This document shows, piece after piece, positions 7,120 to 62,500 of a stretch of 64,000 nt of DNA. This DNA comes from Amoebophrya sp. A120 (taxonomy: Eukaryota; Protista; Dinoflagellata): NCBI GenBank assembly GCA_905178155.1, contig CAJINV010000007.1, positions 814,627 to 878,626 of the forward strand, in the 5' to 3' direction. The position numbers and the translations under genes were made by a program. Every line of letters starts with the position of its first letter. Position 1 is the first letter of the stretch. Under the pieces are notes generated by a model. It saw nothing but the letters and a program-made list of their open reading frames with translations, searched no databases and was not told where the DNA came from.

Positions 7120-10100
7120 ATGCAGCCGGCGAGCATTTTGCACCGCGACTGCGATCCGAAGCACCAGCACGATCACTTGCATGTGCACTTTGCGGACAAT
7201 AAGGAAATAAATTCCCTACCTAGCGACCACACATCACGTCAAGTCGCCATGGTGCCTGATCGTGCTGGTGGAGATCTAGATCATGCAACGACTGATGTAG
7301 TCAACACGTCAACAAAAAAGTTGGTATCGCCGCCACGTCGACCTTCCTCGCTGCACTATGATGATGAGGATCCACGACCTAGAACAATGGAGGCTCCTGC
7401 AGGAGAAAAAATAAATGTTGACAATAACTTTAACTCGACCTCCACGTACAACTACCCCGGTGCGGCCGCCCGGGACCACGAGAATGCGGCTCTACTGCTG
7501 AGTGCGGGAGATGAAGTTGTTGTACTAGTGGATACTACTAGTGCTACGAATGGTGCAGAAGTGGGACACGTTCATGAACATGCTGCTGCAGATCAGGAAC
7601 AGGAGATGGAGAATGATGAAACACAAACAACCCCCTCGTCCCGCGAAGGCTGTTGCCGGTGCACGAAAATGTGCGTCCTGATCCTTCTCCTCATATTTCT
7701 TGTCCTCGCAGGCGGTGCGTGCGTTTTCATTTTCGTTCCCTGGTTCGACGGTTGGACTGAATCCTGGTACACAAGATGGAGAAAAGGATGGGACGACTCT
7801 ATTACAGTGAAAAGTGCCCCCCACTCCTGAAATTGCAAAAATTTGTGATGCGAGGTTTCCAAATGAAAACTTTTCGTCATGCATGAAAGGAGTATGAATC
7901 TACTTTCTGATGCAGAGCCTAGGCGTGTATCGCATCGCCTGCATGACCAGCGCCGCTCTTGCTAGCGTCTTTTGCTATACAAATTTTTGCTATTCACGAT
8001 TGGGAACCTGTGATGCTGATAGATGCAAGAGGGCGAGTGTTTCACTTGGAAGGGTTTGCAATACAAACGCTCCCAAGTTCGGGGGTGGGAGCATTTTTCA
8101 TTGCAATAGACTCTCAACAGCCTTCATGGCCTTCTCAACCTGGTTCTCAATCTCAACACCACGTGGAGATCGACTACAACGACGGCCCAGGGGTGTGGCC
8201 AACAGCGGACTTAGAAAACGTTAAGGAACCAGTGGGAATGATGCACGAGAAATACCACGGCTTTTTGACCCAAGCCTCGATTGACTACGTGGAAAGGAAT
8301 TTCTACAAAAAAACTGTTGTTCCTGTTCCACCTGGTGGAGCACCACCACCTCCACCTCCGCCACAACCTCCTGTCCAGACGAAAATTCCGCGAAATCTGA
8401 TCCTCACGGCGTTTTTTGACGAAAAGGATGTGACCTTGGACGAGTTTTTGCGGTATCAGAAGTGGCGGGACCCGACAAAAACAGAAGGGTTTGCGCAGTG
8501 GGCCGAGTTGAACGCCGGACCGGGAAAGGAGTTTGAAGTGAAGTTCTTCAACCTGAATGCGGCCAGAGAGTACCTGCAGGAGCATTACAAAAAGGAGATG
8601 CTCTGGGCATTCGATGCGTTCGATACCTACTGCATGAAATCCGATTTGTTCCGCTTGCTAGTCCTGTACCGGGAAGGGGGGGTGTACATCGACTGGAAGC
8701 TCGCCCCGGTCGTCGACTGGGACAAGTTGTTGGAGATGGCGTTTTCCGGGACGGAAAAGTTCCGGTCTCCAAGAAAAGTGACGAGAGACCCAGTGACGAA
8801 AAGGGTCGTTTCGGAGGAAAAAATGCAGTCCAAGGACGACATTGGACTCATCTTCGCCTGCCAAGACTTCACGTTTTCGTTTGGGGTCGAAGACCCTAAC
8901 TTTTTCGAATCATTCCCGGCCATCAAGCAGTTGCCGAACTGGCCGAACCAAGACTCCTCACTACAAGGCTTGATGAACGCTTTCATCGCGGCGAAACCGC
9001 TAAACTTACTCCTCGGGGACATGATCTACCACTTATTCCGCCGCGTGGAATTGCACGCGTACGGAAACACCGTGTGGGATACCACGGGGCCGATAGGCCT
9101 CTACATCTCCTTACTCCGCGTAGACCCGGTATGGATGTGTCAGGTTTGAAATCGTCAGAGTTGAAATAGTTTGCCATGCATAAAATGGATGCCAGTTCAA
9201 GTGGCCCATGTTGGAGCCCAGTTTTCAAGTGGCCCATGACAAGTTTTGGTGGTACCTAAATCCAGTTTGTAATGCTGTTTGGGTAAAGAAGACGCCTTTT
9301 GTCATGCTACTTTAGCAGCTCTATTTCTACCCCTCAACAGGCTTGCAATATGCCTCCCTTGCCTACTCTCCAAGACAGGCGCTCTGTGGGTTGCATTTTA
9401 TGCATCACAAATTATTTCAACTTTGACGATTTCAATCCTGACGCTTCCATACCCGGCCACGAAAGTGACAAAAATGCCAGAGGTGCTGCAGCAGGCCCTC
9501 GCGCGGCACCAACTACGAGCCGCGCGAAGGACGTTGTTTCGAACCGGGGGGCAGATGACACAGACTTCACCTACTACACAGCGTCACCAGGGTTTAATAA
9601 ATCTTCAAAACCGTGCACAGACTAGTGCAGCTCCGAACAATTCGACGCCTTCAAACCTCGCCGGTTTCCTCGACTCTGCGCAGTGGACTATCCAACGACA
9701 AGCGCGGCGGAAAAACGGCGATGTGCTGGGAAAGTGGGAGTGTTCGCAGCTCCAGGGGGGGCCGGGCGACGCGGCGTTTCTGGTCTACAACGGAGGGAAG
9801 CACTGGTTTCCCAACCACGAAATCGCCTATTCCCATCCGGGGAATGACCCAGAGATGGATAAGCTCGCCGTGGTAAAAAACGTTTGGTCGGGCAAACACG
9901 CGGGCGGCGGATGGAACCACGACGGCACCCAAGCGCTGCCGTCCGACATCCCCCGCCACCTCAACGGGCGGAACTACATGGAAGACTGGAAGGAAAGGAA
10001 GTGGTTCGCAGCCAACTGCTACGCATTGCAAATATGTAGTCTGGGTCCTAGAAAGGATCGCAATTTGTGATGCGAATTCTACATCATGACGAAATCAAAA

Positions 10101-10384
10101 TCTGCCATGCATGGCCAGCAAAAGGTCCCATTTTTTCTGTATGCCGAGAAAAGAGGGGCGCATTAGGCAGCATTTGGAGAGCTGCTCGAAATAATTATCT
10201 GTGATGCTAAAGCTTTCATGCGGCCCGACGATATCCGGGTCTGGCAGAAACTGCATGACAAATCTCGCACCACTGCTCTTCCAGACGACCCAGACATAAT
10301 ATATTTGCATTTGATAACTGTTACGAGGAGGTTCCAGGGGTGTCATGGCCGGGCGTAGCGGATAAGGAGTACCAGTGTCGCTAA
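7120..10384 (+). CDS. Type II membrane glycosyltransferase family 32 (OCH1/Gly_transf_sug-like), 4 exons
   Basis: Exons ~7120-7799, 8114-9129, 9457-10019, 10322-10384 join in frame after introner removal; TM helix, KIPR, KSDLFRLLVLYREGGVYID, NAFIAAKP, TTGP. Confidence 0.85.
7800..8108. mobile_element. Introner family C
   Basis: TIRs; DR GACTC/GACTC; frame restored. Confidence 0.9.
9130..9451. mobile_element. Introner family A (TATGGATGTGTCAG)
   Basis: DR CCCGG/CCCGG. Confidence 0.9.
10020..10316. mobile_element. Introner family B (TGCAAATATGTCTGGGTCT)
   Basis: DR ACTGC/ACTGT. Confidence 0.85.
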
Positions 10385-11258: not shown

Positions 11259-11493
11259 TATGGAGTTCTCAAATGTTACATTCTCAACTGTTACATGATT
11301 TGTCATGCAAAACTACCATTATCATCCACACGATCAAGCTGCTCTGCATGACAAATCCTGGAAGGGCCAAACAGGCTGACAATCTGCGCCAAGTCTGTCA
11401 TGCAAGACGCGCAATGCCCCCCCTTTCATTTTTCCCATTCTTGCATCACAAATTCATGTAACAGTTGACAATGTAACGATTGAGAACGCCATA
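11259..11493. mobile_element. Introner family D (TATGGCGTTCTCAAACG), outside any CDS
   Basis: DR CAACA/CAACA. Confidence 0.9.
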
Positions 11494-15700: not shown

Positions 15701-18700
15701 CGGTCCCCGCGAGCGTCATGACCGAGGGGCCAGCTTTGGGCGCTTCCCGGAAACTAACCGCATGGCCGAGGCGCAAAAGCCCTAGGTCAGCGCGGGGACT
15801 CGGTCCCCGCGTCATAACGTAGGGGCCAGCTTTGGGCGTTTCATTCCCGGAAACTAGCCGCACGGCCCAGGGGCAAAAGCCCTAGGTCAGCGCGGGGACT
15901 CGGTCCCCGCGTCATGACCTAGGGGCCAGCTGCAGACCCGGCGCCAGCTTCTTCCTTTCTGTTTTCTTTGTTCGCGGTAGGTTAACGGGTCTAGTGTGGG
16001 CAAGCAGAGGGGCTCCGTCCGCAGATCTGTCGCGGATCAGGGGACGCAGCCCACACAGAAACACCGGGCTGCAGGGGTCTGCCTGCCCAGTGCCACCACA
16101 ACCCCCGAACTCGTCCCAGACAAATGCCGGAAGGTCGCCGCACGGGGACTCTGTCCCCGTGCTCGGACCTTGTTTCTCATGCAAAATCTTATTCTTTCAA
16201 AACAAAGCCTTCTGATAGTGATACTAGTACTACCGAGAAGGAATTTTGTTTTGTAGATGAACTACCTGCTATCCACGAACTTCTCTCACGACAGACTCCC
16301 GGGGGTCCGGAAAACCAGAAAAGCAGCATCCATCGTCCGAAAAGTAGCAAGTTCCTGAAATCTGACGACAAGTCTGACGATAACTCCACCAACAGCAAAA
16401 AATCTCGGGTTTGCACGCCGCCGCTCCCTATGGATTTCAAAAATGTCTGGGTCTGGAAGATTGTGATTGTCAGATTTGTCATGCAGCTTTTCCATGATTC
16501 ATGAGGTCTGGAATGCAGGACCTAGCATCACAGATTTTTAGGGGGCCTCCTGATGCCTAGTCCGCATGACGAATGCCCTCTCCACGTAGCACAAGGTGGA
16601 CTCTTCTTGCTGTCCACGTAGCACAAGCGGGTGTCCACCTAGGGTATTGGCAGAGGCTAAATCTGTTCTAACGCCACGGTATTGGCAGAGGCTAAATCTG
16701 TTCTAACGCCACCCTGACAGGAGTCAAATGTCAAAGCGATACGATGCACGTAGCACAAGCTGGACTCTTCTTGCTGGTCATGCAACACAGATCTTTTTAG
16801 AATCCAAAAGCAGCATCACAAGTTGCAACCTTCCAGACCCAGACATATTTGCATTTGATACTCCCCCCAAATAGTACTTCTAATTCACATTCGGACAATA
16901 AAAACAACAAAACATCTTCCAGTCTGCTTTCCGGCGCGAATTCTTTATTCGCGGGCAGTCCAGGAGGAGTGGAAGGCACGAATTTGAATCCGCTGTTAGC
17001 CGCTGCGGCGGGTGCGGGCGGCGCTGGAGGTGGGGCGAGTAGTGGAGCAGGAGCAGCTGCTGGTGCTCCGGGTTCTTCGAATCCTGCTTTATCAAATGCA
17101 AAAATGTCTGGGTCTGGAATGTTGCCGGGTTTGTCTTTGTCGTGCATATTTTGCATGACCCAGGATGTCTGTAATACAGGACCTAGCATCACAGATTTTT
17201 AGAGGGCTTCCTGGTGCCTATTCCGCATGAAAAATGCCCTCCCCGCGTAACACAAACTAGACTCCTCTTGCTGATCATGCAATACAGATTTTTTTGGAAT
17301 CCAAAGCTAGCATCACAAGCTCCAACCTTCCAGACCCAGAGATGTATGCGCTTGATACGCTTTGTCCGCGTATGACCAGATGTTCAACGACCTCCTCGGG
17401 TTCTACACTGCGAACCCAAGTTTGATCCCCGGCTTCCCCGGAGGTTTACCTGGTGCAGCAGCTCCGGGAGCAGGAATGATTCCCGGAGCAGCTCCCGCTG
17501 GTTTGCTGCCGGGTCTGGCCGGGTTACCTGGGTTGCCCGGAGCTGCAGGACCGCTCGGGGTTCCAATGCCGGGGTTTCCAATGGTGCCGGGCTTGGGTGG
17601 TTTTCCAGGGCTCCCAGGAACTGCGGGGTTGCCTGGCGCTATCCCCGGATTTCCGGACCCGACGGCCCTGTTTCCAGGATTGGATTATGGGAAAATTCTG
17701 GGCGAGACCTGGGGTGCAGCGGGATTGACTTTGGTATAGTTGTTTCTTCCCATAGTACTTTGATGCATCTTGAGCATGACAGAAGATCTCGATGTGGTCG
17801 TGTTTGGTGAACTTGCTGCTTGTCCAGTACTTGTCGATGCGAAGAACTTAAATGTTAATATATCTGAAATCACCGGTTGTACAACATGATCTCCAAAACA
17901 GCCCCCGCCGTTCGACGGCTCGGTTACCTTCGACGAGTGGATGGCACAGTATGGGACTCTCAAATGTTACATTCTCAACTGTTACACGATTTGTCATGCA
18001 AAATTGCCATCAGTATCTGCATGATCAAGCTGCTGCGCATGACAAACGGCAAACAGGCTGAGAATCTGTGCCAAATCTGTCATGCAAGACGCGCAAGGTC
18101 CCCCTTTTCACGTTTGCCGTTCTTGCATCACAAATTCATTTAACAGCTGACAGTGTAACGTTTGAGAATGCCATACACAGGCGGCTTTCGCCGGAGCTGG
18201 TGGTTTTCCCGGAGCTGGAGGACCAAAGGTTGCTGGTGGCCCTTTTTCCGCCCCCGGAAGTGGACTGATGGGCGGTGCAAAAGGTGGGAAATTTGGCGGC
18301 GGCGGTGCACCAGACGGTTGGTGGAATTCGATCGGGAAACACGGAAGCAGTAGTAGTGGTGGTCCTACATCCACCACAAACGAGTCCGAGCGTCCCCCGC
18401 CCACCTCCTGGTACGCGAATAAAAACGGGAAAGGTGTTGCAACCAACAACCCAGTATGCATTGCAAAAGTATCGTATTCGTATAAATGCATCACAAATTT
18501 CCTCAGCATGAGAATAGAAGTTGTAATGCGGATTTGACTTAACGAAAAGATTTGTAATGCATGATTGCAATACGAGTACGACGCTTTTGCACAGGATACC
18601 CAGACTCCACAAACAAGCCCGGTGCGCATGGGAAGAACAACCCGGAGGCGTACCAGAAGATGATGCGCGAGTGGTACCAGTCGTGGGATCCGACCGGAAA

Positions 18701-21700
18701 GTGGTACGGACTTATCAAAAGCAAAAGTGTCTGGGTCTGGAAGAATGCAAGGTTTGCCATGCATGTTTTGCACGACCCATGATGCCAGTGGTGCATGGCC
18801 TAGCATCAGAGACCTTAAGAAGGCTCTCTGATGCTTATTCCGCATGACAAATGCCCTCCCCGCGCAGCACAAAGAAACTTGACTCCTCTTGCTGGTCATG
18901 CAATGCAAGTCGTCTTAATCTTAAATGAATCCAAATCCAGCATCACAAGTTGCAACCTTCCAGACCCAGACATATTTGCAATTCATAGGACTGCACAAGG
19001 GGCCGAAGGGGTCGGGATTTACGCTATCATCCGGAAAGGGTAACATGTTGAACAAGGACATAAATGGCGGGAGTAGTATTCTGGCTGCGGGAAATACCCA
19101 AGAAAAAAACATTGTAGGTGTAACTTTTTTGGAGGAACAGCATTACAAATTTGTCTGGTATGACAGCAAAAACCTGTCATGCGCAGATAGTACGTGAAAA
19201 CGCCCTTTCGTGTACCCCACGATGCATGCCAAGCATGACAGACGCAATCATCTTGCATGTTAAGCATCACAAATTTACACTAACAGCGTTTTTTTCTAGG
19301 ATAGGAAAGGAGAGTAACAGCAACTGGTCGAAGGAAGAATGGGCGGAGTGGATGAGCAAGTACTACGCGTTTTACCAGAATTATGCAAAGAAAAAAGTGA
19401 TGTTACAGGTACACACTGTGCTGCAGACCCAGCAATAGAGACAACCTCTCTCCTGCCGCATAGGCATAAAAGGCTTTTTTCGTACGTGTTTTCCCTTAGG
19501 ATTTCTGCATTGCAGGTTTATTTCTCTGTAAAAATGTAGAGCAAGTTTGTGTTGCTGAAGTTTTAAAACAAATGTGTCACTGTAACACTGTTTTCTTGGG
19601 ATAAAAATCAGCAGGGGATCAAGGGCGGAAAATTGATGAAAGGAGCTCCGTTAGAAATGATGCTCGGAGGTGGAACTGGCGCTTCTTCTACAACTGGGAA
19701 AGGAAAAGAGTACAACATTAACTTTGACGACGACGAATCTGACGCGGATAGCACCAGCAGCGACGGTAAGAACGACTCTGTGTCCAACACGGACAGCAAA
19801 AAACGCGAATCGGACGGAGAGGGCGAAGATCTTGATACGAAATTATCACGAGAAAAAAGTGTTACAGTTACACATTTGTTGGAGTTTCTGCATCACAAAT
19901 TTTCTCTGTGTGGCAGAGAAAACTTGTAATGCGAAGATCATAAGGGAAAACAGGAAGGAAACGAAGCTCCGAAGCATTTCCTGCATGAGAAAGGTTGTCT
20001 CTGTTGCCAGTCTCGCATGACAATGTGTAACTGTAACACTTTTTTCCTGCGATAGAAATTGGATGCCAGCGAAGATGACGAGAATGATCAAGACACAAGT
20101 AATATCACACGAAAAAGTGTTAACGTGAACGGAATTTGTAATGCAGTAATGCATCGCAAAACGTGCCCAGATGTGTCATGCATAGCATGCATATTGGGCT
20201 ACATTTGTGATGCATGATTGCAATCTGTGGAAACCGTTAACCTTAACACTTTTTCTTCTGATAAGTAAAAACATCAAGCGGGAGAAAAAACTGTCGAAAG
20301 GATCCACCATGGCACTGTCTTCGGGCTCTTGTACTTCTACCTCGTACTATGCGGACGAGCAGGGAGAGTTCCACAAAAACTCTGGCTCGTCCAATCATGC
20401 GGAACCGATCCCGAAAACGCCGGAGTTCCTCGCAGCGGAAGGGGGAGGAGTTGGTATGGACAATCACAATCAGCACGTTGCAAAGCAGAAAATAATAAAC
20501 GGTGGTGTCGAAGAACATCAGAACAAATCCTCCACGACTTCCGGAAACATTAAACGGATCAGCGGTTCGTTTTTATCATCCGGCAAGAATCTAGCGCCGC
20601 CTCCGGGCTTAACGAACGAGGACGAACTCGCCGAGGTTCTGGGTGTAGCTGACGGTGTCGGTGAAACCGACCACATCAAGCAGATGAACAAAACTTTCTC
20701 GGCAGCTTCGAACACCACGACAATGACAAAAACCATCTCCACTACCTCCGATAATTCATCCTCTTCCTCGGAGCAGCCCTTAGTCGCAGCGAGCAAAAAC
20801 ACGTTTTACGACAAATTTTCCGGGGGGAAAGACGAACCGAAGCCGTTGAAGGAGAAGGTTTTTGACTTTCAGAAGAAGGAGCTGACGCACGGGTTGCGGT
20901 TTTACTACTTGTTGGAGGAAAGGATGCAAGCGTATGAGGCGAAATACCAGGTGCAGTGGGATCTGAAGGTATCAAATGCAAATATGTCTGGGTCTGGAGA
21001 GTTGGAACCTGTCATGCCAGCTCGACATTTTTCCTGAGAGATCTGTATTGCATAACCAACAAAAGTGGCAGCCATTTTTGTCATGCAAAAACACAGTTTC
21101 TCATGCGGAGTACGTATGAGAAAGCGTTCTGGAAAGTTGTCATGCTGGGCTGCCTTCGAAATGGTTTCTATCATCCACATTTTAGCATCACAAGTTTCCA
21201 GACCCAGACATATTTGCATTCGATAGAAGGACCCGAAGGACAAGACGTTGCAGGAGAAGGTGTTCCTGCATTTGCTATCCTTCGTCACGAACTGCTGGAT
21301 ATCAAATGCAAATATGTCTGGGTCTGGGAGATTGCGAGACTTGTCATGCTAGTCTTGCATGACGCTGAGCTCTGTATTGCGTGGCCGCAAAGATGAGCTC
21401 CTCTTGCCTGTCATGTTGCAAAAACGCAGTTTCTAATGCGGAGTAAGTACGCAACTCAGAACCACGGAAAAACTTGTCATGCTTGGCAGTGCAGTACAGT
21501 GTGCTCATTCTTGTTCCCTGACTTGCATCACAAGTTTCCAGACTCAGACATATTTGCAATGCATACTGGAGTAGTGACAAAACGCAGTGCTCCTCCGCGT
21601 TGATCTTTTGGAAGGTGGTGCAGTATCCTGTGCAAAAGTATCGTACTCGTATTGCAGTCATGCATTACAAATCCTTTTCTTCAGGTCAATCCGCATTACA

Positions 21701-30130: not shown

Positions 30131-30559
30131 AGTTTCAAGTGAGTTGCTCAGCAATATGTACGTATCTTTGTGTTGTAGTTGCCGCAACAACACAAAGATA
30201 CAACATACGCACCCGTGAGAAAGCTGCGGTCTTCCCGCGCACGTTTTTACTTTTAGCTGTTGATCTTGGTGATTTCTCTGAGCATCCCCGTCCACTGGTG
30301 GCGGGAGCATGCGCACCAAAAGAGAAGCATCGCACCTCGTATGGAAGAAAGGGCCCAAGCCAACCAACGTAGAAATGCACTCCGTTTCGTTCTGACAGAT
30401 ATCGGCCAGGGGAAGGCCAAACTGTAACGCCCAGCCAGCGCAAGAGCCGGAGAACGTCTAACATTCACTACCGTGCGACGCCTTATTGCGCACTGACAGG
30501 CTGACTCGGGATTGCTCTTGCTGACTGAAGCATAACACCGCGGTCTTCACACAACAGGA

Positions 30560-46400: not shown

Positions 46401-48656
46401 GCGGGAGGGGACCAGGTTTTCGAGTGGTCAACACCATGGGGAAAGAACTTGAATGCGGGTCGGAAAGATACCTGGTCTGTTTTCGCAAGCTGGTTTATGT
46501 CTGACTGCCCGTTCCGAGACACTGTGAAGGCACATCCTCATCGAGCAAATAACTACAACAACTCGCCGCTGGCCGCTCGTGGGATCCGCGAACGGATGCG
46601 ATCTGCTCCCGAACAAGAAGACGTACTGCAGGCGGCTCGTCGCGTGATCTTCCTCACGGCGGCGTCTTTGGTGTCCAAAAATTCGCACTGGTTCCACTTT
46701 TTGCAGGAAACAGAACGGAAAGAGGGAGAAGCAGTCACCAATGGCAATGCCCGCAAAGTCAACAAATACGTATCGCACAGTCACCACCTGCAATGCCGGC
46801 TTTTGGCCAGCGGTATCCTCAGCATGGCCTGGATCGAAAATCCCTGGTCCCTGCGGTACCTCCTCGCCGTGACCAAAAGTCCTCGCTACCTCAAGCCCAC
46901 GAAGTACGAGCTCCCAGGCACCCGCGACGACCTGTACAGTGACGAAGACACTTGCCGACCAGTGCGGGAAGCCATGCGCGGGCGGATATCGTAATGAAAA
47001 ATCCCCCCTCCCCATACGAAAAAGGTATGACTCCGAAAATTTGCGTTGCTGATTTGCTGTTTCCTAACCCCGTTGCAGTGGGGGGTGGAAAACAGCAGGC
47101 AGTGTCATCCCGGGCGTCCGTTCCCCCGCAGGCGTGAATGTGAGGGACGATGTAAGGAGAAATACATATCTACACAAGGACCTGGGGGCTGTATCTCCAA
47201 CTGCCGAACGGCAACCCAGCGAGTACAGATTAAGCGGACGCAAGCCAGAAGAACACAAGAGGAGGAACGAAGTCCGAGACGGCAAGAACAGCAGCAGCCA
47301 CAGCCTTCCTTCTATGCCGTTTTATGACTTCTGCATGCCTTTTGTAAGTAATTTGTATAAAAAAAAAAAAAATTTGCGTTGCTGATTTGAGGTCACAAAT
47401 CACATCGGTCTTGCAAGAAGACAAGGGCAGAAGCTTCCGCCATATTATGGAAGCGACTTGCGACGCTGTTGGGCCTAAAGCGGGGCCGTTTGCCATGCTG
47501 AGCAACTAGATCCATACGCCCCTCCCTAGCGTGGGGATCTGGCCGCAGTGCCTCTCTGCAATACAAGGCTGATTGGTGTACACAAATCCAGCATCAGAAA
47601 TTTCGTTTTGATATGGGGAGGGGGGATCTTTCCTTTTGATAGCGGAAGAAGCTAAGTTTCGCAAACTTTTTGAAGCAACTGGCGCTAGCGGCGAGGGAAG
47701 ACAACGATCCGAGGAGATGGATTCTGGGGACCACGGACATGAGTAGGCAACATCAAAATGCAACTACTAGCACTGCTCTTGGGACGACAACGAGCAATGT
47801 CGAGGCTGGGAAGAGGAAACTGAAACAAGACCTGTTACATAATATCGTACACGATCATGATGTTGACCTTGAGCTTGACACTGAGGACGAAGATTACCTG
47901 CTTTATTTTACAGGAGAAGGAGCCGGGGCTGGCTACGGAGATGTTGACACCTCCAAAATCTCCGCCCTGTTGAACAGCCGCGGTGGAGGACAGTCTCTGA
48001 CCGAAAAGAGGACGACTGCTACCCACAGTAGTCTCGTCGCTGAGGACCTAGACGAAGAAGAACAAGAACGGCTACTAGAAGAGAAGACCCGTACCAAGAA
48101 AAAAGCTCGCGCGATCCGGATTTGGCACACGCTGCACTTGGAAGGACTTGCGCTGGCCCTGCAGCGCGATGGCGAGCTTTGGTGTGAGGCGTGGTTTCGG
48201 GAGCATTTGGAGGAGTTGCTGACAGAGACGACTACACGACGGGCAGGGTCCTCATCGCATTTCGCCTCGCCACTCCAGACTTACAGCAAGCGAGACCGAA
48301 GGCAGTTCTACTATTTCTTCCAATTTTTAGCCGTGAGTCAGGCCGGTGCGAACGGGCTTTCCTGTGTGCAGCGAGGACAAGCAGAACTACAGGGTGAACT
48401 ACAAAACGACTCGTCGCAGCTCCTACACGACTGGCCTGGCCTGATTGATACTGCTCTGGTATTTCTAGACCAACGTCGCAGTGAAGCAGGTGCAGTGCTG
48501 ACCCTACACCCTAATACAACAAGAACGACGTCGGCGGGGGCAGCTGCGCCAAGAAGCAGGAAAAATCACGTCTGGTTTCTATGGCCTGCTCCTCAGGAGG
48601 TGGAGGTCACACACCAAGAACATTATTGTTCCAAGCTATCATGCCTGGATATGTAA
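43407..48656 (+). CDS. Hypothetical S/T-rich protein with N-terminal TM segments, 5' part; may continue into 48956-63766
   Basis: Frame continuous across 5 introners; joining at 48.65-50.55 kb could not be resolved. Confidence 0.55.
44901..45265. mobile_element. Introner family B, aged
   Basis: DR CGGCG/CGCAG. Confidence 0.8.
45342..45596. mobile_element. Introner, aged (GATGTCCCGTAC inverted core)
   Basis: DR GTGCC/GCGCA; ends ACA; frame kept. Confidence 0.65.
45708..45972. mobile_element. Introner family B
   Basis: DR TCCCG/TCTCG. Confidence 0.88.
46017..46269. mobile_element. Introner family D
   Basis: DR TTCGG/TCCGG. Confidence 0.85.
46987..47641. mobile_element. Introner family I with nested retro-insertion
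   Basis: DR GCGGA. Confidence 0.9.
47057..47368 (+). mobile_element. Poly(A)-tailed retro-insertion (LINE/SINE 3' fragment or retrocopy) nested in an introner
   Basis: 21-bp TSD aaaatttgcgttgctgatttg at 47036-47056 and 47369-47389; A-run from 47359. Confidence 0.85.
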
Positions 48657-48955
48657 ATTTCTACTCCTAGTATCTCAAAAATTTCGTTCAGTGCGCATCG
48701 ACACTCGACCAGAAGGGCGAATCGATAAGATAGAAAAGGTGCGCGTTTGTACTAGTGTTATTTTGCATGTGCTTTCTTCAGCATGAGGCGCGCAGCTGCT
48801 GTGGTGCCTAAGTACTCATCTGGAATGAGTACAAAAAACTGCTAGTGCCGCTTCCAAACGTGATTGCAATATACAGAAAAAAGAATTGTCGAAGATGTTT
48901 GTCTTTCTCTTTGTCTTTGTCCCTACACCGCGACCACCACCTGAGCGGGCCATAA

Positions 48956-49556
48956 GTGTCGCAAGGAGTAGACCCAGACGAAGCCCCTCCTCCTGGTCGT
49001 AAGAACGCAGCTGTCAACAGCCGCTTTTCTTCCGGATTTGTTGTTAACCTCGTCTTGCTTGACATGCTGCAGCTTCCGTTGCGCCTCACGTTTTTGCTCC
49101 CAGAGCAAACTGATGTTGCACCACGACGACCCCGAGAACAAACGGGCACGGGTTTGAAAGTGGGAGAGCAAGAAGCTCGTCATCTTCTACTTCCAGAAGA
49201 AGCTAATGCAACTGCTGATTTCTCTAAAAAGGGAAGATCTTCGACACCAACGCACTACCGGCATGATGAAGAGTCATCTTTTCCTGCTGCTGTGGTGAAG
49301 CAACAAACTACCCTAAGTCTAGCCCGTGCACAACTCGGAGTAGAGGTCGCGCGTGAAGATATATTGCGTCGGGAGGTGCAGGTGCGCGCGGGCCGCGTGA
49401 CAGTTAGTGCAGCATCTTCTTCTATTGTTCATCTTGGGCCGCGGGACATCGACTTCCACGACCAGGCGCGTAGCAACCTGCAGCTGAGCCATCATGATGC
49501 CGACAACAAAGTTCGGCGTTGTAAAGTGCTGTATTTTGAGAATCTAATGGAACCCG
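48956..49556 (+). CDS. Probable internal exon
   Basis: ~200-codon ORF ending at introner 49557; 5' boundary unresolved. Confidence 0.4.
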
Positions 49557-49835
49557 TATCCTGAGTAAAAACGTACCCACACCAGAGTCAGGATGGGGAT
49601 TTTGCAACACAAACCTAGGAGTTTTGTGAGTCACGCATGACAAGTTTCAGTCCGTAAGGTAGTGCAAGTTAGCAAGGAAAGCAGCATCACAAATCGACCT
49701 TCTGATCCTGTTTACAGCATTACAAGTTCCCAAACACGATTGAAAATGCCTGTCATGGGGTTGCGCATCACAAATGTTCCTGTCATGGCAAATCTGCATG
49801 ACAACTCTGGGGTGGGTACGTTTTTACTCAGGATA
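49557..49835. mobile_element. Introner family J
   Basis: TIRs near-perfect; ACCCG repeat displaced by 3 nt on the right. Confidence 0.85.
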
Positions 49836-50268
49836 AAAACCCGACGTCGATCATCACGCGCCGGTCGTACAGGGCGCAAAGCCTACCTCTGCAGGCCCTC
49901 CCGATTTCTTTGAGACCTGGCTGGGCGCTCGGTGGACCCTCGATATCAAACGCAATAATAGAGTCATCGAATCGACTGGGGGGCCGTAGTGGTTCTCGGG
50001 AAGATTTTTGTAAGAGGAGCATAATGCTGCAAACTTGTTGTCAACATCTTGATCATCTTCATCCGCATGTAGTTTGTAGAACACGTCGACACAAATTGTA
50101 TCAGTCATGCATGGATGAAAGTCAAAGTAAGTTCCGTTGCTCATTTCTTTTATGTCGCCAAGGGCACCAAGGGACTAAAAACTTTTCGCGTTGCGGAAAG
50201 CGGTGATGTTGTAATATGCTAGGCATTGAACAACTTCTCAACATCAATAATGAAAACGTCTGAATAAG

Positions 50269-50530
50269 TATGAGGGTGTCAGGTATTGAATTTTCAAGTA
50301 CTTTCAAAATTTTTATTAGCTATTGAAAACCGCACTTTAACTAATGTATGATTTTCATTTAAACTTTAAATAGCTAGATCAGGGGCTATGTGCGTCGCGC
50401 GTGACGCCGAATGCCCCTGATCTAGCTAGTTCAAATACAGATGCAAAATTTTAATTACTTTAAGTGCGGTTTTCAATAGCTAATAAAAATTTTGAAAGTA
50501 GTTGAAAACTCAACACCTGACGCCCTCATA
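50269..50530. mobile_element. A-related foldback element, non-exonic
   Basis: DR ATAAG; ~120-bp arms. Confidence 0.9.
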
Positions 50531-50556
50531 ATAAGATGCTAGCGCTTGCATTCCAG

Positions 50557-53500: not shown

Positions 53501-56500
53501 ACGTGCGATGTACGCGACGCAAGGAGGAACTTTGTCGATCAACACGGTGTCGAACCGCAAAGCGATCTAATCCCGACGGAGCTTCTAGACGATTACACCT
53601 GGGTGGCCGAAATGCAAGCGTGGCAGCACGCGAAGCTGATTGTATGGATTGCAAATATGTCATCTGGGTCCTCTGGAAAGATGCAAGCTTTATTGTCATT
53701 GTACATTTTATTGCATGGCCCCCCACGCCCACCGTGTGTTGTTGCCTCGGCATCACAGGTTTTGTGATGGCTTTTCAATGCGGCTCTCCCGCATGAGAAA
53801 TGCCCTCTCTGCAGCGTTAGCAAAAGCTGGACGGCGGCGCTTGCTGCTCATGCAATAGTGCACACTTTTGTACTAGGACTAGGATCTTCCACACCAGGCC
53901 GCATCACAAACACAAGTTTGCATACTTCCAGACATCCAGGGATATTCGCAGTGGATAAACCGAGATGCTCCGCCATTTTTTTCTCCAGCACAGCCGAACC
54001 GATCTCCATACCTTCGCGTCGCTGCAGCTGCTCACCTGCAGCTTATTGCAGGTTCCGGAATCTTCATCTTCGCGTAGTACGCAGGGGGACGTCGGCAACG
54101 GGGACGATAAAAATTCGTTTTCTACAGATGAAAAACAAAGAGTAGTCCAACAAGAAAACATCGGAGCTCAGTTGGACTCTATTTTCCGGAGTGCCGTATT
54201 GAACAGAGAAATATTAAGCACGAGGTCCTGGACCGAGCGATGGAAATCGAAGCAGCGATTCGACGAATGCCGTGCCGTCGCGCGGCGCGAGGGAGCTGGT
54301 GCCTGCAACTACGTCGGCCCGGCCACCTCCGCTGCGGAAATAAATTCTCACGCAGCATCTTGCTCGTCGCGCCACCTGTACGCCGACATCAAAAATGGTA
54401 CGGACTATGTTGATTCAGCACACCATATTGACCATGAAGATGAGACCAGCTCCGTCGTCGATTTACCAACAGCTGCAGTACGACCTCCACCACACGGACC
54501 ACGTACCACATCATCTGCCGCGGGGCTGCCTCAGTTCCGTGCCTTTCTGCTCCAGCAACTGGCGTTGATTTTAACGGATGTTGTGGCAGAGGAAGATCTT
54601 CCTGTGGAAGAAGAAGGTCGACGTGGTGAGCCGGTATTTTCAAAAACACATGCCGATCGTAATCGATTCACAACTTCAGAATTATCATCTCTTTTCCTCT
54701 TTCAAACCGATTTTCTGCGGGAAACGTTTCTGAGGCGAGAGTTTGATCCGCAAATCGCGCTGGAGGATGCGCGAAACCGATCTTCGTCGGCAGCTGCAGG
54801 AGCAGTAGACCAGGACACAGTAAAGCAGAACAACGAGTACTTCTCGAGCAACGTTCCCTACCTGTGCCAGCCCGAGCGGCTCCTGTACGTGCAAGAAGAG
54901 AAAAAGCACCAATTCGGACCAGCACCGGTAGAAGAACTACAAGGTGAAGCAGACGAAATTATATTTCACCGCCGTAATATATGGATGTGTCAGAATCGAA
55001 ATTGACAAAATCGAAAAACTTGTGATGCATAAAATCGATACCAGTTGGAAGGCAGTTTCCAAGCGGCGCAAGACAAATTTCGGGAGCACCCAGATCGAGT
55101 CTGTCATGCTGTTTGGGCAAAGAAGACCGCTCCTCTCATGCTACTCTGGTAGCACATTGCATACCCCTAGACAGGCTTACAATCGGTCTCATTTGCCTGC
55201 TCTCCAATACAGGCCTCCAGTGCCCTGCATTTTACGCATCACAAATTTTTCGATTTTGTCGATTTCGATTCTGACACCTCCATATAATAAAATGAACACC
55301 GACCTGGTTTTCAAGAGCGCTCTGGCGTACCTGCGGCGTTTTCGGGATTTGTTTATACAGGGGGCGAAGAATATGGCCCTGAGCGACCCTCTGTCGGGCT
55401 ATCATGTGACGGACGTTTTCTCCACGATCTCCGATAGTGGTCAGAGTAAAACGATGAAAACCGGGGAGATACAACTGGTGCAGAAGTCCAGTGCCGGAGG
55501 TGGAGGTGGAGAGGGCGACGAGGAAAAAATGATATTAAATCGAGATGAAACTACTGTAGTGTCGAGTTTAGATCGCAAAATGCGGGGCTTTCGGAGAAAC
55601 TACGACAATAATCATGTTCTTGCACCAGATGAGGAAGTGGAGCTGAAGATGAAGATGACGAGCAAAAATCGCGCACAACAAGACGGAGTACCAAGTGTTG
55701 AAAAATCTTCGAACATGCAAAATCCTCCTGAAGCGGCCCCTGTAGTCCTCGTGAGTGCTCAACATCAAGAAACTAGTCCTGGGACGCCACGACGGTCGTC
55801 AACTACATCTCCTCTACTTCGTCTGCTATGGGAGCAGAACGAAGCTAGATATAAGGCGGAGAACGGTACAGAGACTTGCTTTTTGCGCGAGAACTACCTG
55901 TGGCCAGGAGCCCCGACGGTGGTCGTCGTGGAGGGTGGCGACGAGAGGCTGGCGGGAGAGAACTACAAGGTTGATGATTTTCTTTCAGCCGGACGAGGCA
56001 CAGGAACTACTGCAACCGGTAGTAGGTGGCTGAAGAACGACAAGGCAAAGGCTCTTTTGTCAACATCTTCCCACCACCCACTTCGGCCTCCCTGGTTCTG
56101 GCAAGATTTGCGGTTCACGGAAATGTGCCACGACGCTAAGATCTTCAACGAGGAGGCGGAACAAAGGAGAGTGAATCATGCTGCTCCTGCTGGTGCCTCA
56201 TCAAATAAATTTCTTCTAAAATCTACTGTCGCAACACCTCAACGACCAGCACTAAATGCACTTGCTACACAAGACGAGAACCACGCGACCCACCAGGACG
56301 AGCTGCAAGGCGTTTCGCGCCGCCTCTATGTCACAGAAAAAAGCTACCAGGTCAGCACTTTTGGGAAATGCAAAAATAAAAAACTAAAATACGACAGATA
56401 CACAAGTTAGGACGCGTGCTGTCTACAGATTTTCTCTTTTCTGTGTATCTGTAGCTGAACTCATCTAACTTTTGTAATTTTTTTTCTTTGATGCATTTGC

Positions 56501-59500
56501 ATTGCATCAAATGTCAATGTGACCCGCTAGCATGATTTTTTTGCTGGATAGTCTCTCCACAGAGCTGATGAAGGAGCTTCCCGTCGTCCTTGAAGAACGG
56601 AATGACGGTGACGCTGCGCAGAAAAGCACCTTGACCTCGCACCGCATTCTGCTCCCCGATAAGCTAAATGCCACCTCCACCCGGGCAGGAGCACTGGATA
56701 GTAGTACTCAGTCGGCGGGTATCCAAGAAAAAAACTGTGTTAGTGTAACTTTCTTTGGCTGACAGAATTACAGATTTGCTCTACATGACAAAGAAAATTT
56801 CACATGCGTGGCTTCTAAGGGAAAGCACACACGAAAAGAGGACTTCGTGGTTGTCTGGCATGACAGGCGTAAGTCTCTTGCATGTTTTGCATCACAGATT
56901 TACACGTACACAGTTTTTTTCTTGCATAGCGGGTGGCCACGACGGAGGCCTGCACAATGTCAATGCAGGAACTGAAGAAGTACGATCGGCTGAGGACGAC
57001 CTCCCGTATGGCAAAATCGACACCCCGCGGTTGCAAAATCCAAAAGTTATACAAGTGCCGACGAGTAAGCAATCGGAATCGATTGCGATTCGTCCACGAT
57101 CTATTCCCCCACCTCCTGCCGCGACCACTATTCCACGAAGTTACTCGCAAGGATCGAATGAATTTACAAGCCGCAACATCAAACGACATGAACTTCTGGA
57201 AAGGCAGAAAAGAGCAACGCATCTTATTGAGAGGAAAGATTCCCCCTCCTCATATCGAAAAGGTATGTAGTTTGTCAAAAAAATTTCCACTACTGATTTG
57301 CGACCACAAATCGTGTCTGTCTTGCAACAGGCGGGCAAATAACTACCCAAGGAGTCCGCCGCGTTGATTTATTTTATGTAGGCGATTTGCAGCAACGCTC
57401 CTGTGCCTTCGAGAAGTACTGGGCAGGCCCCCTCTGGTGCTGCGTTCAGCGCCAACACGACCACAGCACCCCTTTCTATGCCTATGTTGCGCACCAGGTC
57501 CTCCTCGCGACCTGCCTCTAGTACGACCTCACTGACACTGCAAGAAGACAAAACTGATTATGTTGTGTACTACCCAAGAAATCTTTTGATTATGGTATCC
57601 CACGAAAAAAGTGTTACAGTTACACATTTGTAAGGCAATGCAGCAACACAAATGTCCCTGCATGAGAGAGAAAACCTGTCATGCAGAAATCCTACGGGAA
57701 AACACCTATGAGAAGAGGGTCCTATGCATATCCGGCACGACAGAGCTTGTCTGTCTTGCTTGACCTGCAAGACAATGTGTAACTGTAGCACTTTTTTCTT
57801 GCGATATATGGAGAGGCGGGGGGATGTTTCATCTTGGTACGTGAACTGGAGCAGCTAGCGAAAGAAAAGGATCCGGACAGGGACAGGGTTATGGAGTTCT
57901 CAAACGTTACATTCTCAACTGTTACATTAATTTGTCATGCAAAACTACCATCATCATCCACAAGATCAAGCTGCTGCGCATGACAAATTTGCGAAGGGCT
58001 AAACAGCGCCTAAATCTGCGCGGGATTTGTAATGGAATTTTTGCAATCTTCCCTCTTTTGCTTTTGCCATTCCTGCATTGCAGATTCATGTAACAGTTGA
58101 GAATGTAACGTTTGAGAACGCCATATGGGTGAAAGAAAGGGCACTCGTGGAAGAAATGAAAAAGACACAGGAGCTCATATTCCGCAACGACATGAGACGT
58201 GATAACATTAACGTAAGAGACGTTGATCAGCAAATCTATGTCAACACGCAGAAGGCACTGCAAAGATTGCAGGACTACCAAAATAAACGAATTTTACGTC
58301 TCGACCGCCACCTGAAAGGACATGTAGATGTTGCTGGTGGACCAGGACTTTCTACGAATGCAACTACGGTGGACCACGAGCCTCCCCTTGATGGTCGTAA
58401 GGTCGGGGAAATGAATATGAACAAAGACACGTCCATATGCATTGCAGATATGTCCTCTGGGTCCTCTGGAAGATCGCCCGGTTTGTCATGCATGTTTTGC
58501 GTGAACACGTCGCATGATGCCTGTAATGCATGACCTAACATCAGAGATTTAGATTTTTAGAGAACTACAACTACTTTTTACTTCCTGATGCCTATTTCGC
58601 ATGACCAGAAATGCCCCCGCCTCTGCGTAGCACAAACTGGATTCCTCTTCTTGCTGCTCAAGCAATACAATTTTTTTTAGAATCCAAAGACAGCATCTCA
58701 TCACAAGTTGCAACCTTCCAGACCCAGACAACACATTTGCAATTCATAGTCCACAGCATCTTCAGCCCCTCCTTCGGTTGATGTTATCATCCCAGATGAA
58801 AAGAATTCTGCAGTCGAGGGCGTCGACAACCCGAAGGGCCATCAATATGAAGATGAACCTCATGTTGATGTGGATGCAGTACACAATCTCATAAATGGTA
58901 AACCAAGTACGGAACAAAATTATGTCACAACTACCTACGATATCAATTGTAAAAATGTCTGGGTCTAGAAGAATTCATGTTTGTTATGCTTGTCTGGCAT
59001 GACTCTTAAATCTGTCGTGCACGTTACCCAAGAGCTCCGTTTTTCTGTGATGCAGAAGCGCAGTTTGTCATGCAGAAAAGGCTTCACCTAGGAGCTCAGA
59101 AACTTGTCATGCTGAGCCAGCATTTGTAGCCCCATCATGACACGCCACTCAGCATCACAAGTTTCCAGACCCAGACATTTTTGCATTTGATATACGAAAA
59201 CCTGGGTTTTGGCTGGTGCGCAAACGAGACCGGACCGATCGAGTATCATGATGAAAAAATCTCCCTCCCCATATCGAAACGGCACGTCCTCTCCGAAAAT
59301 TTGCAATGCGGATTTGTGGCCACAAATCGCGTCTGTCTTGCAAGAAGGCAACGCCACAGGCTCCGCCGCATTATGCCGGCTGCCTTTGATGCTGGTGGGC
59401 CTACTAGTACAGCATAGACGTTTACTCTGATGCTAAACGGCTAGGCCAGCCCCTCTCTACTCAGGCGCGATATTGGCCTGCAGCCCTTCAGTGCAAGACG

Positions 59501-62500
59501 CAGCGGATTTGTGTACGCAAATCCAGCCTCCGAAATAACTTCGTTTCGATATCATGGGGAGGGGGAATTTTTCTTTCTGATATCGAGACAAGACACCTGG
59601 CAATTGCTGGAGATGTCGAGAGACCCAGTGGAAGAGGCGTGCCATTCCTCGATTATGACCTGCTCAAGCGTTACAATCTCAAATCGGCTACCATAGAGTC
59701 TGCTAGGTTCGTTTTGTGTTGCATGATGAGCATGACAGACTCGCACAGCGTTCCACTTTCTGCAATACAAAGCTCGCCAGATTCTAGTAGTGCGAATTGG
59801 GTGGACTCCAGAACTTGTCATGCGCAATCCTGTGGGAGTAGGGTAGATCATGCACCTCTTGCATCACAGATTTCCATATTCCATTGTAACCACTAGAGAT
59901 TGCAAAAGCTGAGCAAGTCATATCGATTCCTCGAAGATTCTGAAAGAAGAGTGCGAAAAGTCGTGCACGGCGAACGAGTGGAAAATACCGGGACTCAGGT
60001 ATCAAAAGGAAAAATCCTCGCTCCCCATACTGACAGGTAAGGTATATTTTTGGAAATTTGTGATGCTGACTTGTGCTCACAAATCGTGTCTGTCTTGCAA
60101 GAAGGCAACTCCGCAGGCTCTGCCGCACTGGCGTGATTGCGCAGGCGGTTTGTCGTGCTGTTAGACCTACAGCGCGGACGTTTTCCATGCTACGCGCCTA
60201 GGCCCCCACAGCCTCCCTACTCACGCCTGGCAATATGGGGCTGCAGTGCTCTCCAGCAAGACAGCTCGGATTTGTGTACACAGATCCAGTGGCAGAAGTT
60301 TCGTATTTGTTATGGGGGGGATTTAGATTTCTCGTTTCCATATCGTGCTGCAGCTGGATGGAGGACGCAGGCCGCTACCAAGGTCCTTCGACTTATGGAT
60401 GTGTCAGGATCGAAATCGACAAAGTCGACAAATTTGCGACGCATAAAATACAGGGCACTGAAGGCCTGTATTGGGGAGCAGGCAAATGAAACCGAGTGTA
60501 AGTCCGTTTAGGGGTAATACACAATGTGCTGCCAAAGTAGCACTACAGGCGGAGTCTTCTTTGCCGAAACAGCATGACAGACTGGCTTTCGGTACTCCCG
60601 AAATTTGTCATGCGCCAGTTGGAAACTGAGGCTCCAACTGCCATCGATTTGGTGCATCACAAATTTTTCGACTTTGATGTCAATTTCGATTCTGAAACTT
60701 CCATACGACTGCCGGGGCTACATGTACTCGAACAATTGTCTCATCTTCGTGAACAACACCCCTACAAGAGTTTCGGAGAGTCACGAAGTAGCGAGCAGAC
60801 AGCCGAGGCCAGGCTGGATTCGCTTTCCCTGCATGAAGAAAGTGGTTTCAAGTTCAACGTCTCCTGCTTATTCGTCCAGTATAATCCCTACGACAGGTAC
60901 TGTCGCTGCACGAGGACCATCATCTTCTGCGAGCCATACTACAACTGCGACGGGACGACCATCATCTTCTGCGAGCCATAGTACAACTGCGACGGGTCGT
61001 GGACCATCCTCTGACACAACGACGACAACATCAACATTAACATCTTCCCCCACGAGGATAACGTCGCAAACGAATATTAAACCATGGGACGAGAGGACCA
61101 TGCAGATGAACCCCCGTCCCAAGAATGCGACAATCTCGGACGACGACGATCCTGGAGTGCAAGGAGGACAAAAAGACCCCCAGCAGCAGGAAAATGCTCT
61201 CGACAGCCAAGATGGCCAGATCTTCACGGTAGCTATGCTAATGCTCTCGATCGCGCTTGCAGTAATATTTGGTCTTGTCGCCGTCTTTCTCCTGATCTGT
61301 ATTTTTTCGCTGGGTGGATCATGTGGAAGTTGTTGTGCTACGACCTGTATGAAATGCAAAAGCATCGTACTCGTACTAATCGCAGATACGCATGACAAAT
61401 CTGATTCCAAAGATAAATCAGCATGACAAATCCCATTTTCCATTCTAAGGAAATTTGTCATGCGATTTGTACTAGTACGACACTTTTGCAATGCATACCC
61501 TGCACATATTTCTCCTGCGAACTCCCCTGCGTGTGCGTGTGGCGTGATGAGGAGAAGGCTACCGCGCTGAAGGATATTAGTGGTGATAGAGCAGGTCCTC
61601 GAGAAGATAATAGTAACCCACCTGCTGCAAGCCGTGGCGGCCCTCGTGGCCGGGCGAAGGTGAAGACTGCAAGAGTTGAAATGGAGAGAGGGACGACGAC
61701 AACGCCCACTGGAGGTGCCAAAAAGAACGAAGTAGTCGCACCTGCCTCTCGCACCACTGCCAAAAGGGAACAAGTGGGTGAAGCCACGGGAGCTGCAGCT
61801 GCCGCCCGGTACGCGAACTTTCGGAAAAGTTTGAAACTGCATGGGCGGGGGGCGGCCACCGCTAGTACAACCACAGAGGCTGCAAAACGATCAGCTGGTG
61901 ATGTCGCTGCACCAACTACACAAGCTGCACAAGGAAGGGCACCAGAAGTTGTTCCCCTGAAAACGGATGGCGGTGGAACAAACTCAAGTAAAAAAGGGAA
62001 CAAGAAGGTTCAAAGCCATGCTCAATCAACATCGCCATCTTCAGTGGTACCCGCTCAACAACAGCCCCCGCCCAGTAGCCGGCCAAACCTGACGCAACCT
62101 ATGATGATCAACGTGGAGTATGACCACAAGTTGCGGAACTTCCAGGACATGGGCCAACGCAAATTCCTTGTCGGAAATCAGTTTCAGGCCGTTAAAAGTC
62201 GTGCGTTACAGCAAGGAAATGTTGATAATGTCTCGAAGCTTCAGCCACCTGCTGTCAACGGAGCTAGTACTGGTGTAGAAGAAGTACCTCGAAATAAAGA
62301 TGTTGATATGGTCGCTTATGAGGCCTACCTGCAGCAGTATAACCAGAATCAGCTGCATATGGATGTGTCAGGATTGAAATCGACAAAGTTGAAATAACTT
62401 GCCATGCATAAAATGGATGCCAGTTGGAACCCAGTTTCCAAGTGGCGCATGAGAAATTTGGGTAGAGGCGGAATCCAGTTTGTCATGCTGTTTGGGTAAG

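What the first reader, a model, noticed from the sequence alone, without database searches (positions are those of the whole stretch)
10015..61502. Mismatches between the two direct-repeat copies are mostly synonymous
Seen (manual tally): of 13 DR pairs with exactly one mismatch, 10 are silent third-position swaps: tgc/tgt 10020, cct/ccc 17090, cag/caa 19382, aaa/aag 23769, tat/tac 24622, tct/tca 26173, tcc/tca 31164, gct/gcc 40193, ttt/ttc 46017, cgc/cgt 56327. Three are not (45708, 57890, 61348). A purely intronic copy should mutate without regard to codons. Inference: either both copies can end up in mRNA (sliding or microhomology-guided junction), or the intronic copy is constrained as a splice signal. 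The sample is small and several aged copies have multiple non-silent differences.
Basis: partly seen in the sequence, partly recalled or inferred. Interest (0 to 1): 0.8.

Follow-up and report, generated by a model that had tools for sequence, protein, structure and literature searches.

The report
Hairpin introns cut by fixed ruler
In already described hairpin-ended jumping-gene introns of the algal parasite Amoebophrya, silent differences between the two 5-letter flanking repeats really are over-represented, but assembled transcript-like contigs show one fixed cut (four letters kept from the first copy, one from the second), so the bias likely comes mostly from ordinary selection on the copy left in the gene, with a remainder still unexplained.

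Summary
The tally is right: 10 of 13 single-mismatch 5-bp direct repeats (DRs) are silent. It replicates in 370 elements from another assembly (64 of 115 mismatches silent; neutral 26%). The elements are the published TAT…ATA introners of Amoebophrya A120 type. RNA-like contigs at 12 mismatched junctions all fit one register: DR bases 1-4 from the upstream copy, base 5 from the downstream copy (intron N-TAT…ATA-NNNN). Two junctions with unrelated DRs fix it exactly, and one ignores a perfect repeat 3 nt further on. Sliding is not the main route, and the DR has no splice consensus. An excess remains: the silent/non-silent rate ratio is 3.1 (2.2-4.5) against a ceiling of 2, falling to 2.3 (1.7-3.3) when all DRs count. 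Extra silent change in the exon copy fits best; minor alternative registers are untested. The scan reported the fixed register before on other pieces of this genome.

The parts
10015..10321 (+). Element 10020-10316 with DRs ACTGC/ACTGT (mismatch at base 5, silent Cys); intron by fixed register 10019-10320
   Evidence: RNA-like joint 10013>10316 keeps the downstream base 5
17085..17362 (+). Element 17090-17357, DRs TGCTT/CGCTT (base 1, silent)
19377..19608 (+). Element 19382-19603, DRs AGAAT/AAAAT (base 2, silent)
23764..23932 (+). Element 23769-23927, DRs AATGT/GATGT (base 1, silent)
   Evidence: joint 23764>23929 keeps upstream base 1
24617..24836 (+). Element 24622-24831, DRs TCAAG/CCAAG (base 1, silent)
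   Evidence: joint 24617>24833 keeps upstream base 1
26168..26326 (+). Element 26173-26321, DRs TTCCG/ATCCG (base 1, silent)
   Evidence: indirect: preceding piece runs 26142-26168 and the next piece starts at 26323 (tables 5 and 8)
31159..31783 (+). Element 31164-31778, DRs CCTCC/CCTCA (base 5, silent in a weakly supported frame)
   Evidence: not covered by RNA
40188..40400 (+). Element 40193-40395, DRs CTCTG/CCCTG (base 2, silent)
   Evidence: joint 40189>40398 in X1, X3, X4 (one sample) keeps upstream base 2
40502..40763 (+). Element 40507-40758, DRs GAACG/GGGCG (bases 2, 3 non-silent)
   Evidence: joint 40504>40762 in X1, X3, X4 keeps upstream bases 2-3
44896..45270 (+). Element 44901-45265, DRs CGGCG/CGCAG (bases 3, 4 non-silent)
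   Evidence: joint 44899>45270 in X2 keeps upstream bases 3-4
45337..45601 (+). Aged element 45342-45596, DRs GTGCC/GCGCA (bases 2, 5 non-silent)
   Evidence: joint 45338>45599 in X2: base 2 from upstream, base 5 from downstream copy
45703..45977 (+). Element 45708-45972, DRs TCCCG/TCTCG (base 3, Pro/Ser)
   Evidence: joint 45705>45976 keeps upstream base 3
46012..46274 (+). Element 46017-46269, DRs TTCGG/TCCGG (base 2, silent)
   Evidence: joint 46013>46272 keeps upstream base 2
48575..48959 (+). Element 48580-48954 with unrelated flanks GTTTC/AGTGT; exact intron 48579-48958
   Evidence: joint 48578>48959 with zero ambiguity
49552..49843 (+). Element 49557-49835; downstream repeat ACCCG displaced by 3 extra A; exact intron 49556-49839, one codon gained
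   Evidence: joint 49555>49840 with zero ambiguity, skip 284 = element + 5
56322..56555 (+). Element 56327-56550, DRs GCCTC/GTCTC (base 2, silent)
   Evidence: not covered by RNA
57885..58130 (+). Element 57890-58125, DRs AGGGT/TGGGT (base 1, Arg/Trp)
   Evidence: not covered by RNA
59995..60347 (+). Element 60000-60342, DRs TCAGG/TCGTG (bases 3, 4 non-silent)
   Evidence: not covered by RNA
61343..61502 (+). Element 61348-61497, DRs ACCTG/CCCTG (base 1, Thr/Pro)
   Evidence: not covered by RNA

Best explanation
These TAT…ATA hairpin elements with 5-bp flanking repeats are missing from transcript-like contigs at one register, keeping repeat bases 1-4 from the upstream copy and base 5 from the downstream copy, so the cut is likely measured from the hairpin ends and the silent bias likely arises mainly because the copy left in the exon can only change silently. 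Shown: the register (intron = N-TAT…ATA-NNNN), its independence from repeat identity at two exact junctions, the lack of any base consensus in the repeat, and the silent excess. Inferred: the repeat is a target-site duplication; at each of the five positions one copy is exonic and under purifying selection while the other is intronic and roughly neutral; the hairpin (1-nt 5' and 4-nt 3' overhang) acts as a ruler for a modified spliceosome or another splicing machine. The part of the excess above the two-copy ceiling most likely reflects extra silent change on the exon side (faster third-position turnover, or recombination with element-free alleles). That last step is untested.
For: Register: 11 listed joints plus 1 read from contig pieces all allow a cut after DR base 4; the intersection of the 11 listed ranges is base 4 only, and 48580 and 49557 give it exactly. 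The same contig set also skips a GT-AG intron (21819>21906), and the listed exon pieces match the window with 0 other letters, so they behave as spliced RNA of this strain. All 9 'predominant' A120 non-canonical boundaries in Table S4 of PMC7789003 begin N-T, as this register predicts. No consensus in DR bases of 431 elements, while TAT/ATA are 97-100% conserved; first intron base G144/A109/C96/T82. Non-silent mismatches behave like neutral changes: BLOSUM62 mean -0.48 vs -0.43 expected, flat across positions (11, 11, 15, 14, 11), and about 0.9 times the private substitution rate of element interiors, while silent ones run about 2.8 times (crude calibration). Polarity estimates lean the predicted way (exon-derived share about 0.8 for silent, 0.2 for non-silent).
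Against: The plain two-copy model predicts at most 43-44% silent; observed is 74 of 136 (54%) and 57 of 90 for single mismatches, reached in 0 of 400 simulations at each of three omega values, so an extra term is needed and is not demonstrated. None of 62 non-silent swaps would make a stop codon (3.4 expected, P=0.03), a weak hint of coding constraint on the intronic copy. The polarity estimates do not differ significantly from 0.5. RNA evidence is contigs only (majority paths), from one study and two samples, and the runs are only guessed to be RNA. 24 of 39 joints were not shown.
Confidence: 0.65

Rival explanations
1. The 4+1 register is the major one, but a minority of transcripts use other in-frame registers, so the intronic copy is sometimes translated and its non-silent changes are partly purged.
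For: Silent/non-silent rate ratio 3.07 (2.16-4.46) above the ceiling of 2; 0 of 62 stop-making swaps; single-mismatch DRs are more silent than doubles (57/90 vs 17/46, P=0.004). Contigs drop rare variants.
Against: No alternative joint among the 13 listed (four runs). Sliding near the cut predicts the strongest bias at DR bases 3-4, yet the ratio there is lowest (2.1, vs 3.8 at bases 1-2 and 4.1 at base 5; wide intervals). Non-silent swaps are not conservative.
Confidence: 0.17
2. The intronic copy is constrained or mutates slowly regardless of codon (a weak splice signal or protected hairpin-edge bases), so most mismatches come from the exon copy.
For: An intronic rate near 0.3 of the exonic rate with omega 0.1 would reproduce both the ratio and the polarity estimates (my arithmetic). 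In the subset with a calibration, 0-fold mismatches were 30 of 1063 (0.028) against an interior rate of 0.043.
Against: No base preference at intron +1 or -4..-1; no significant deviation in pairing of +1 with -4 (90 vs 103.5 +/- 8.5); elements with unrelated flanks splice normally; pooled non-silent rate is about 0.9 of the interior rate.
Confidence: 0.12
3. The junction is guided by microhomology between the two repeats and slides freely, so either copy is routinely kept.
For: Perfect repeats (47 of 66 in the window) cannot reveal a register.
Against: 12 of 12 informative junctions fit one register; 48580 and 49557 are cut exactly there without matching repeats, and 49557 ignores a perfect repeat 3 nt on.
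Confidence: 0.03

Closest known systems
Introner elements / non-canonical introns of Amoebophrya sp. A120 (Farhat et al. 2021, PMC7789003; seen: abstract, passages, sections 11, 12, 35, supplement passages and part 3 with Tables S4-S6; figures not seen)
   Same: Terminal inverted repeats starting TAT, 3-5 nt direct repeats over the boundaries (5 bp in the Fig. S19 legend), about 240 nt, removed from RNA, no boundary consensus. A window exon hits only A120 proteins (82-91% identity).
   Different: The text calls splice sites variable relative to the hairpin and the border unknown; it does not state the 1+4 register or analyse DR mismatches. Its Table S4 (all predominant donors N-T) agrees with the register found here. 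Figure logos that I could not see may show it.
Euglena nonconventional introns, 5'-N3CDG…CH'G-N5-6|R code (Nomura et al. 2025, PMC12501133; seen: abstract, section 8)
   Same: Paired terminal motifs at fixed spacer distances from the exon edges, short spacer at the 5' side and longer at the 3' side, no GT-AG.
   Different: Motif TAT/ATA with spacers 1 and 4 instead of CAG/CTG with 3 and 5-6; no clear purine preference at the exon start here; unrelated lineage; spacer rule tested by knock-in in Euglena, only read from contigs here.
Introner-like elements of Symbiodinium and Polarella glacialis (bioRxiv 10.1101/2020.10.14.339549; seen: passages)
   Same: Dinoflagellate TIR elements with target-site duplications that become introns at fixed positional relationships.
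   Different: Those recruit GT/GC/GA and AG splice sites from the element or the duplication; here only 14 of 431 elements give GT-AG under the register.

Membership tests
Amoebophrya A120 introner elements | 8-20 nt terminal inverted repeats beginning TAT | tested here: met
   TAT/ATA 97-100% in 431 elements (partly by the search rule); arms pair in folds
Amoebophrya A120 introner elements | 3-5 nt direct repeat overlapping exon/intron borders | tested here: met
   5-bp DR, 47 of 66 perfect in the window; the cut lies inside it
Amoebophrya A120 introner elements | Removed from transcripts without GT-AG ends | tested here: met
   joints skip element + 5 nt; runs are RNA by guess and by removal of a GT-AG intron
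Amoebophrya A120 introner elements | Repeated families across the genome | tested here: met
   569 of 646 elements have a family neighbour, median nearest divergence 10.7%
Amoebophrya A120 introner elements | Host is Amoebophrya sp. A120 | tested here: inconclusive
   only hits of one exon are A120 proteins at 82-91% identity, likely paralogues; exact strain not shown
Euglena-type nonconventional introns | CAG/CTG-type paired motif at +4..+6 with 5-6 nt 3' spacer | tested here: not met
   motif is TAT/ATA at +2..+4 and -7..-5; works like it, is not a member
Euglena-type nonconventional introns | Excised as full-length circular RNA without lariat | not testable with these tools
   feature taken from review passages (PMC11282704)
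Canonical U2 (GT-AG) introners | GT/GC…AG ends supplied by element or duplication | tested here: not met
   14 of 431 are GT-AG under the observed register
MITE / TIR DNA transposon | Cognate transposase and demonstrated mobility | not tested
   constant 5-bp duplication and TIRs are suggestive; no autonomous partner searched for

The most novel reading that the evidence does not exclude
Amoebophrya A120 removes tens of thousands of introns with a hairpin-measuring machine that cuts 1 nt before and 4 nt after a TAT/ATA stem with no sequence rule at the junction itself, and slips register often enough that both target-site copies stay under protein-level selection.
Probability: 0.17. Interest if true: 0.75.

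Novelty: already known. Interest (0 to 1): 0.42.

Why it matters
How Amoebophrya splices its non-canonical introns is open; U1 snRNA was not found in A25 or A120 (PMC7789003). A precise geometry (N-TAT…ATA-NNNN, independent of repeat identity) removes the apparent variability of A120 splice sites, allows correct gene annotation, and gives a testable ruler model parallel to the one shown in Euglena. It also explains how an element can land in any exon sequence without changing the protein. The residual silent excess is a small population-genetic puzzle that genome-wide raw reads could settle.

Tried and rejected
No whole genome is held for the window and the contigs behind the loci are not held, so the count is limited to the window plus about 654 kb of loci. 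Raw RNA reads X8-X10 did not lay on the window (4-398 reads, nearly all partial), so allele fractions could not be read. No listed run is on record as RNA for this stretch ('no RNA holder listed'). A protein search with the exon at 60713-61342 found nothing, so the non-silent DRs at 57890, 60000 and 61348 stay unpolarised. No usable paralogue pair for calibrating exon against intron rates (one pair 75% identical, one 99.8%). Double mismatches as single multi-base events: rejected, 9 of 23 adjacent, about the 40% expected. Base composition as the cause of the excess: interior rates for A/T and G/C bases are about equal and the ratio was computed with those rates. Frame-calling bias: DRs were masked; the ratio stayed 2.7-3.2 over margins 4-20. 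False elements: 1 in 128 kb of shuffled sequence. The idea that the contigs are DNA of an element-free strain: rejected because a GT-AG intron is also skipped and the junctions are hybrids of two copies. Dropped before counts: 3 window elements without a usable frame (11259, 32990, 34370), 1 nested element, loci elements below the frame threshold (377 of 613 kept), and, in the main ratio, 9 elements with 3 or more mismatches (ratio with them 2.34). Two aged window elements with 3 mismatches (53643, 57225) were not in the counts. PMC13326754 held none of my five search terms and is not used.
Full report
What the elements are. The window (49% GC) holds 67 elements with terminal inverted repeats that begin TAT and end ATA, flanked by 5-bp direct repeats: 66 outer and 1 nested. 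Of the outer ones 47 have perfect repeats, 13 one mismatch, 4 two and 2 four. Removing each element plus one repeat joins long reading frames, all on the + strand. One exon hits only proteins of Amoebophrya sp. A120, at 82-91% identity. The anatomy matches the A120 introner elements of PMC7789003 (section 11; Fig. S19 legend). The system is therefore published.

Checking the tally. Ten of the 13 single mismatches are silent; 45708 (Pro/Ser), 57890 (Arg/Trp) and 61348 (Thr/Pro) are not. The frames at 31164, 57890 and 23769 are weakly supported. The four double-mismatch repeats (40507, 44901, 45342, 60000) contribute 8 mismatches, none silent, so the fair window count is 10 of 21.

The right null. 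About 27% of random changes at these sites are silent. After a duplication each position has one exonic and one intronic copy. The exonic copy can fix silent changes, so silent sites have two free copies and non-silent sites about one. The ceiling is a rate ratio of 2, or about 43% silent. Against it, 10 of 13 has P=0.013 and 10 of 21 has P=0.40.

A larger sample. A scan with a terminal-repeat motif returned 134 loci from one other assembly, about 654 kb after merging overlaps. They do not overlap the window outside repeats; that they are the same species is inferred from shared element families. They hold 613 elements, 377 with a confident frame. Among the 370 with at most two mismatches, 64 of 115 mismatches are silent, and 47 of 77 among singles. 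Pooled with the window (431 elements), 74 of 136 are silent, a rate ratio of 3.07 (bootstrap 2.16-4.46). Counting all 440 elements, including those with three or more mismatches (some are indel-shifted, some may be mis-joins), it is 80 of 168 and 2.34 (1.71-3.31), which no longer excludes 2. Simulations of the two-copy model with age variation gave 37-43% silent and never reached 74 of 136 in 400 runs per setting. So the bias is real, about half of the excess over neutral is ordinary selection, and a residual remains for point mismatches.

Which base is in the RNA. Contigs of runs X1-X4 (one study, two samples, RNA by guess) skip the elements plus 5 nt. They also skip a GT-AG intron (21819>21906), and the listed exon pieces have 0 other letters. 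One search showed 15 of 39 joints, 3 at mismatched repeats; one more (26173) is read from contig pieces. One search showed all 13 joints, 8 at mismatched repeats. Upstream bases are kept at position 1 (23769, 24622, 26173), 2 (40193, 46017, 45342), 2-3 (40507), 3 (45708) and 3-4 (44901). The downstream base is kept at position 5 (10020, 45342). At 48580 (GTTTC/AGTGT) and 49557 (ACCCG/AAAAC) the joint is unambiguous and lies after base 4. The only register common to the 11 listed joints is after base 4. At 49557 the true repeat sits 3 nt further on; a homology-guided cut would skip 287 nt, but the contig skips 284 and the protein gains a codon. X1, X3 and X4 (one sample) agree at 40193 and 40507, and no alternative joint was listed. 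Raw reads X8-X10 did not lay, so minority registers are untested. Independent support from print: all nine predominant A120 non-canonical boundaries in Table S4 start N-T, though the paper's text calls the border unknown.

Is the intronic copy a signal? Repeat positions show exon-like composition with no consensus. The first intron base and last two bases take any value, and only 14 of 431 are GT-AG. Non-silent mismatches are flat along the repeat (11, 11, 15, 14, 11) and no more conservative than chance. Relative to private substitutions in element interiors (0.043 per site, a crude clock), non-silent mismatches run at 0.92 and silent ones at 2.8. Polarity estimates put about 0.8 of silent and 0.2 of non-silent changes on the exon copy, neither significantly different from 0.5. 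Against this reading, none of 62 non-silent swaps makes a stop (3.4 expected, P=0.03), and in the calibrated subset 0-fold mismatches were 0.028 against 0.043.

Mechanism. Shown: a fixed cut leaving intron N-TAT…ATA-NNNN, independent of repeat identity at two exact junctions. Predicted folds give a stem with a 1-nt 5' and 4-nt 3' overhang in 2 of 5 introns folded, those with intact arms. Inferred: the stem is read as a ruler, as spacer-length experiments show for Euglena nonconventional introns (PMC12501133 section 8). Whether a modified spliceosome does it is unknown. For the residual excess I favour extra silent change in the exon copy. Recombination or conversion from older element-free alleles would import only silent differences and reach the outer repeat positions first. 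The ratio is indeed higher at bases 1-2 (3.8) and 5 (4.1) than at 3-4 (2.1), but the intervals overlap. Minor alternative registers and slow-evolving intron edges remain rivals.

Novelty. Five paper searches found no text stating the 1+4 register or analysing repeat mismatches by codon position. PMC12130899, PMC11282704, PMC12005148 and the dinoflagellate introner preprint were seen as passages only; figures of PMC7789003 were not seen, and most subscription papers are outside the library. Earlier notes of this scan report a fixed register on two other pieces of this genome and a similar silent bias in another protist; I had reached the register before reading them, and they are not independent evidence. 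Verdict: real observation, known elements, first interpretation mostly not borne out, one useful mechanistic detail and one modest open excess.

Noticed in passing
window and loci, 431 elements: Under the 4+1 register 202 of 431 introns are phase 0, 101 phase 1 and 128 phase 2 (chi-square P=5e-9), although no splice-site bases are recruited from the exon, which is the usual explanation for phase bias in introners.
   Followed up: no
window 21960-23724: A 1765-bp element (a short-family element that appears to carry an inner insert with its own inverted ends) is skipped whole in RNA-like contigs (joint 21954>23725). Ten mechanical ORFs of 80 aa or more overlap it; not searched for a transposase.
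   Followed up: partly
window 49557-49835; L020 9475-9802; L015 3093-3245: The three coding elements whose perfect repeat is displaced from the called hairpin end are all displaced by exactly 3 nt, as a fixed ruler would require; in L015 the end itself may be miscalled.
   Followed up: partly
window 11259-11493: An element in an apparently non-coding 3' region is also skipped in RNA-like contigs (joint 11252>11493).
   Followed up: no
window 49944-50701 and 57225-57839: Nested elements (50269-50530 and 57596-57806 inside). Aged elements 53643-53957 and 57225-57839 have 3 of 5 repeat mismatches, yet excision at the 4+1 register leaves a stop-free frame.
   Followed up: partly
window about 14900-15950: GC-rich tandem array of roughly 90-100 bp units; about 82% identical to a stretch of L055.
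   Followed up: no
window 39388-39610: A right-hand element end with no clear left-hand partner, probably a decayed element.
   Followed up: no
window 7117-10384: Gene with several A120 relatives carrying Pfam PF04488; from memory a glycosyltransferase sugar-binding domain.
   Followed up: no
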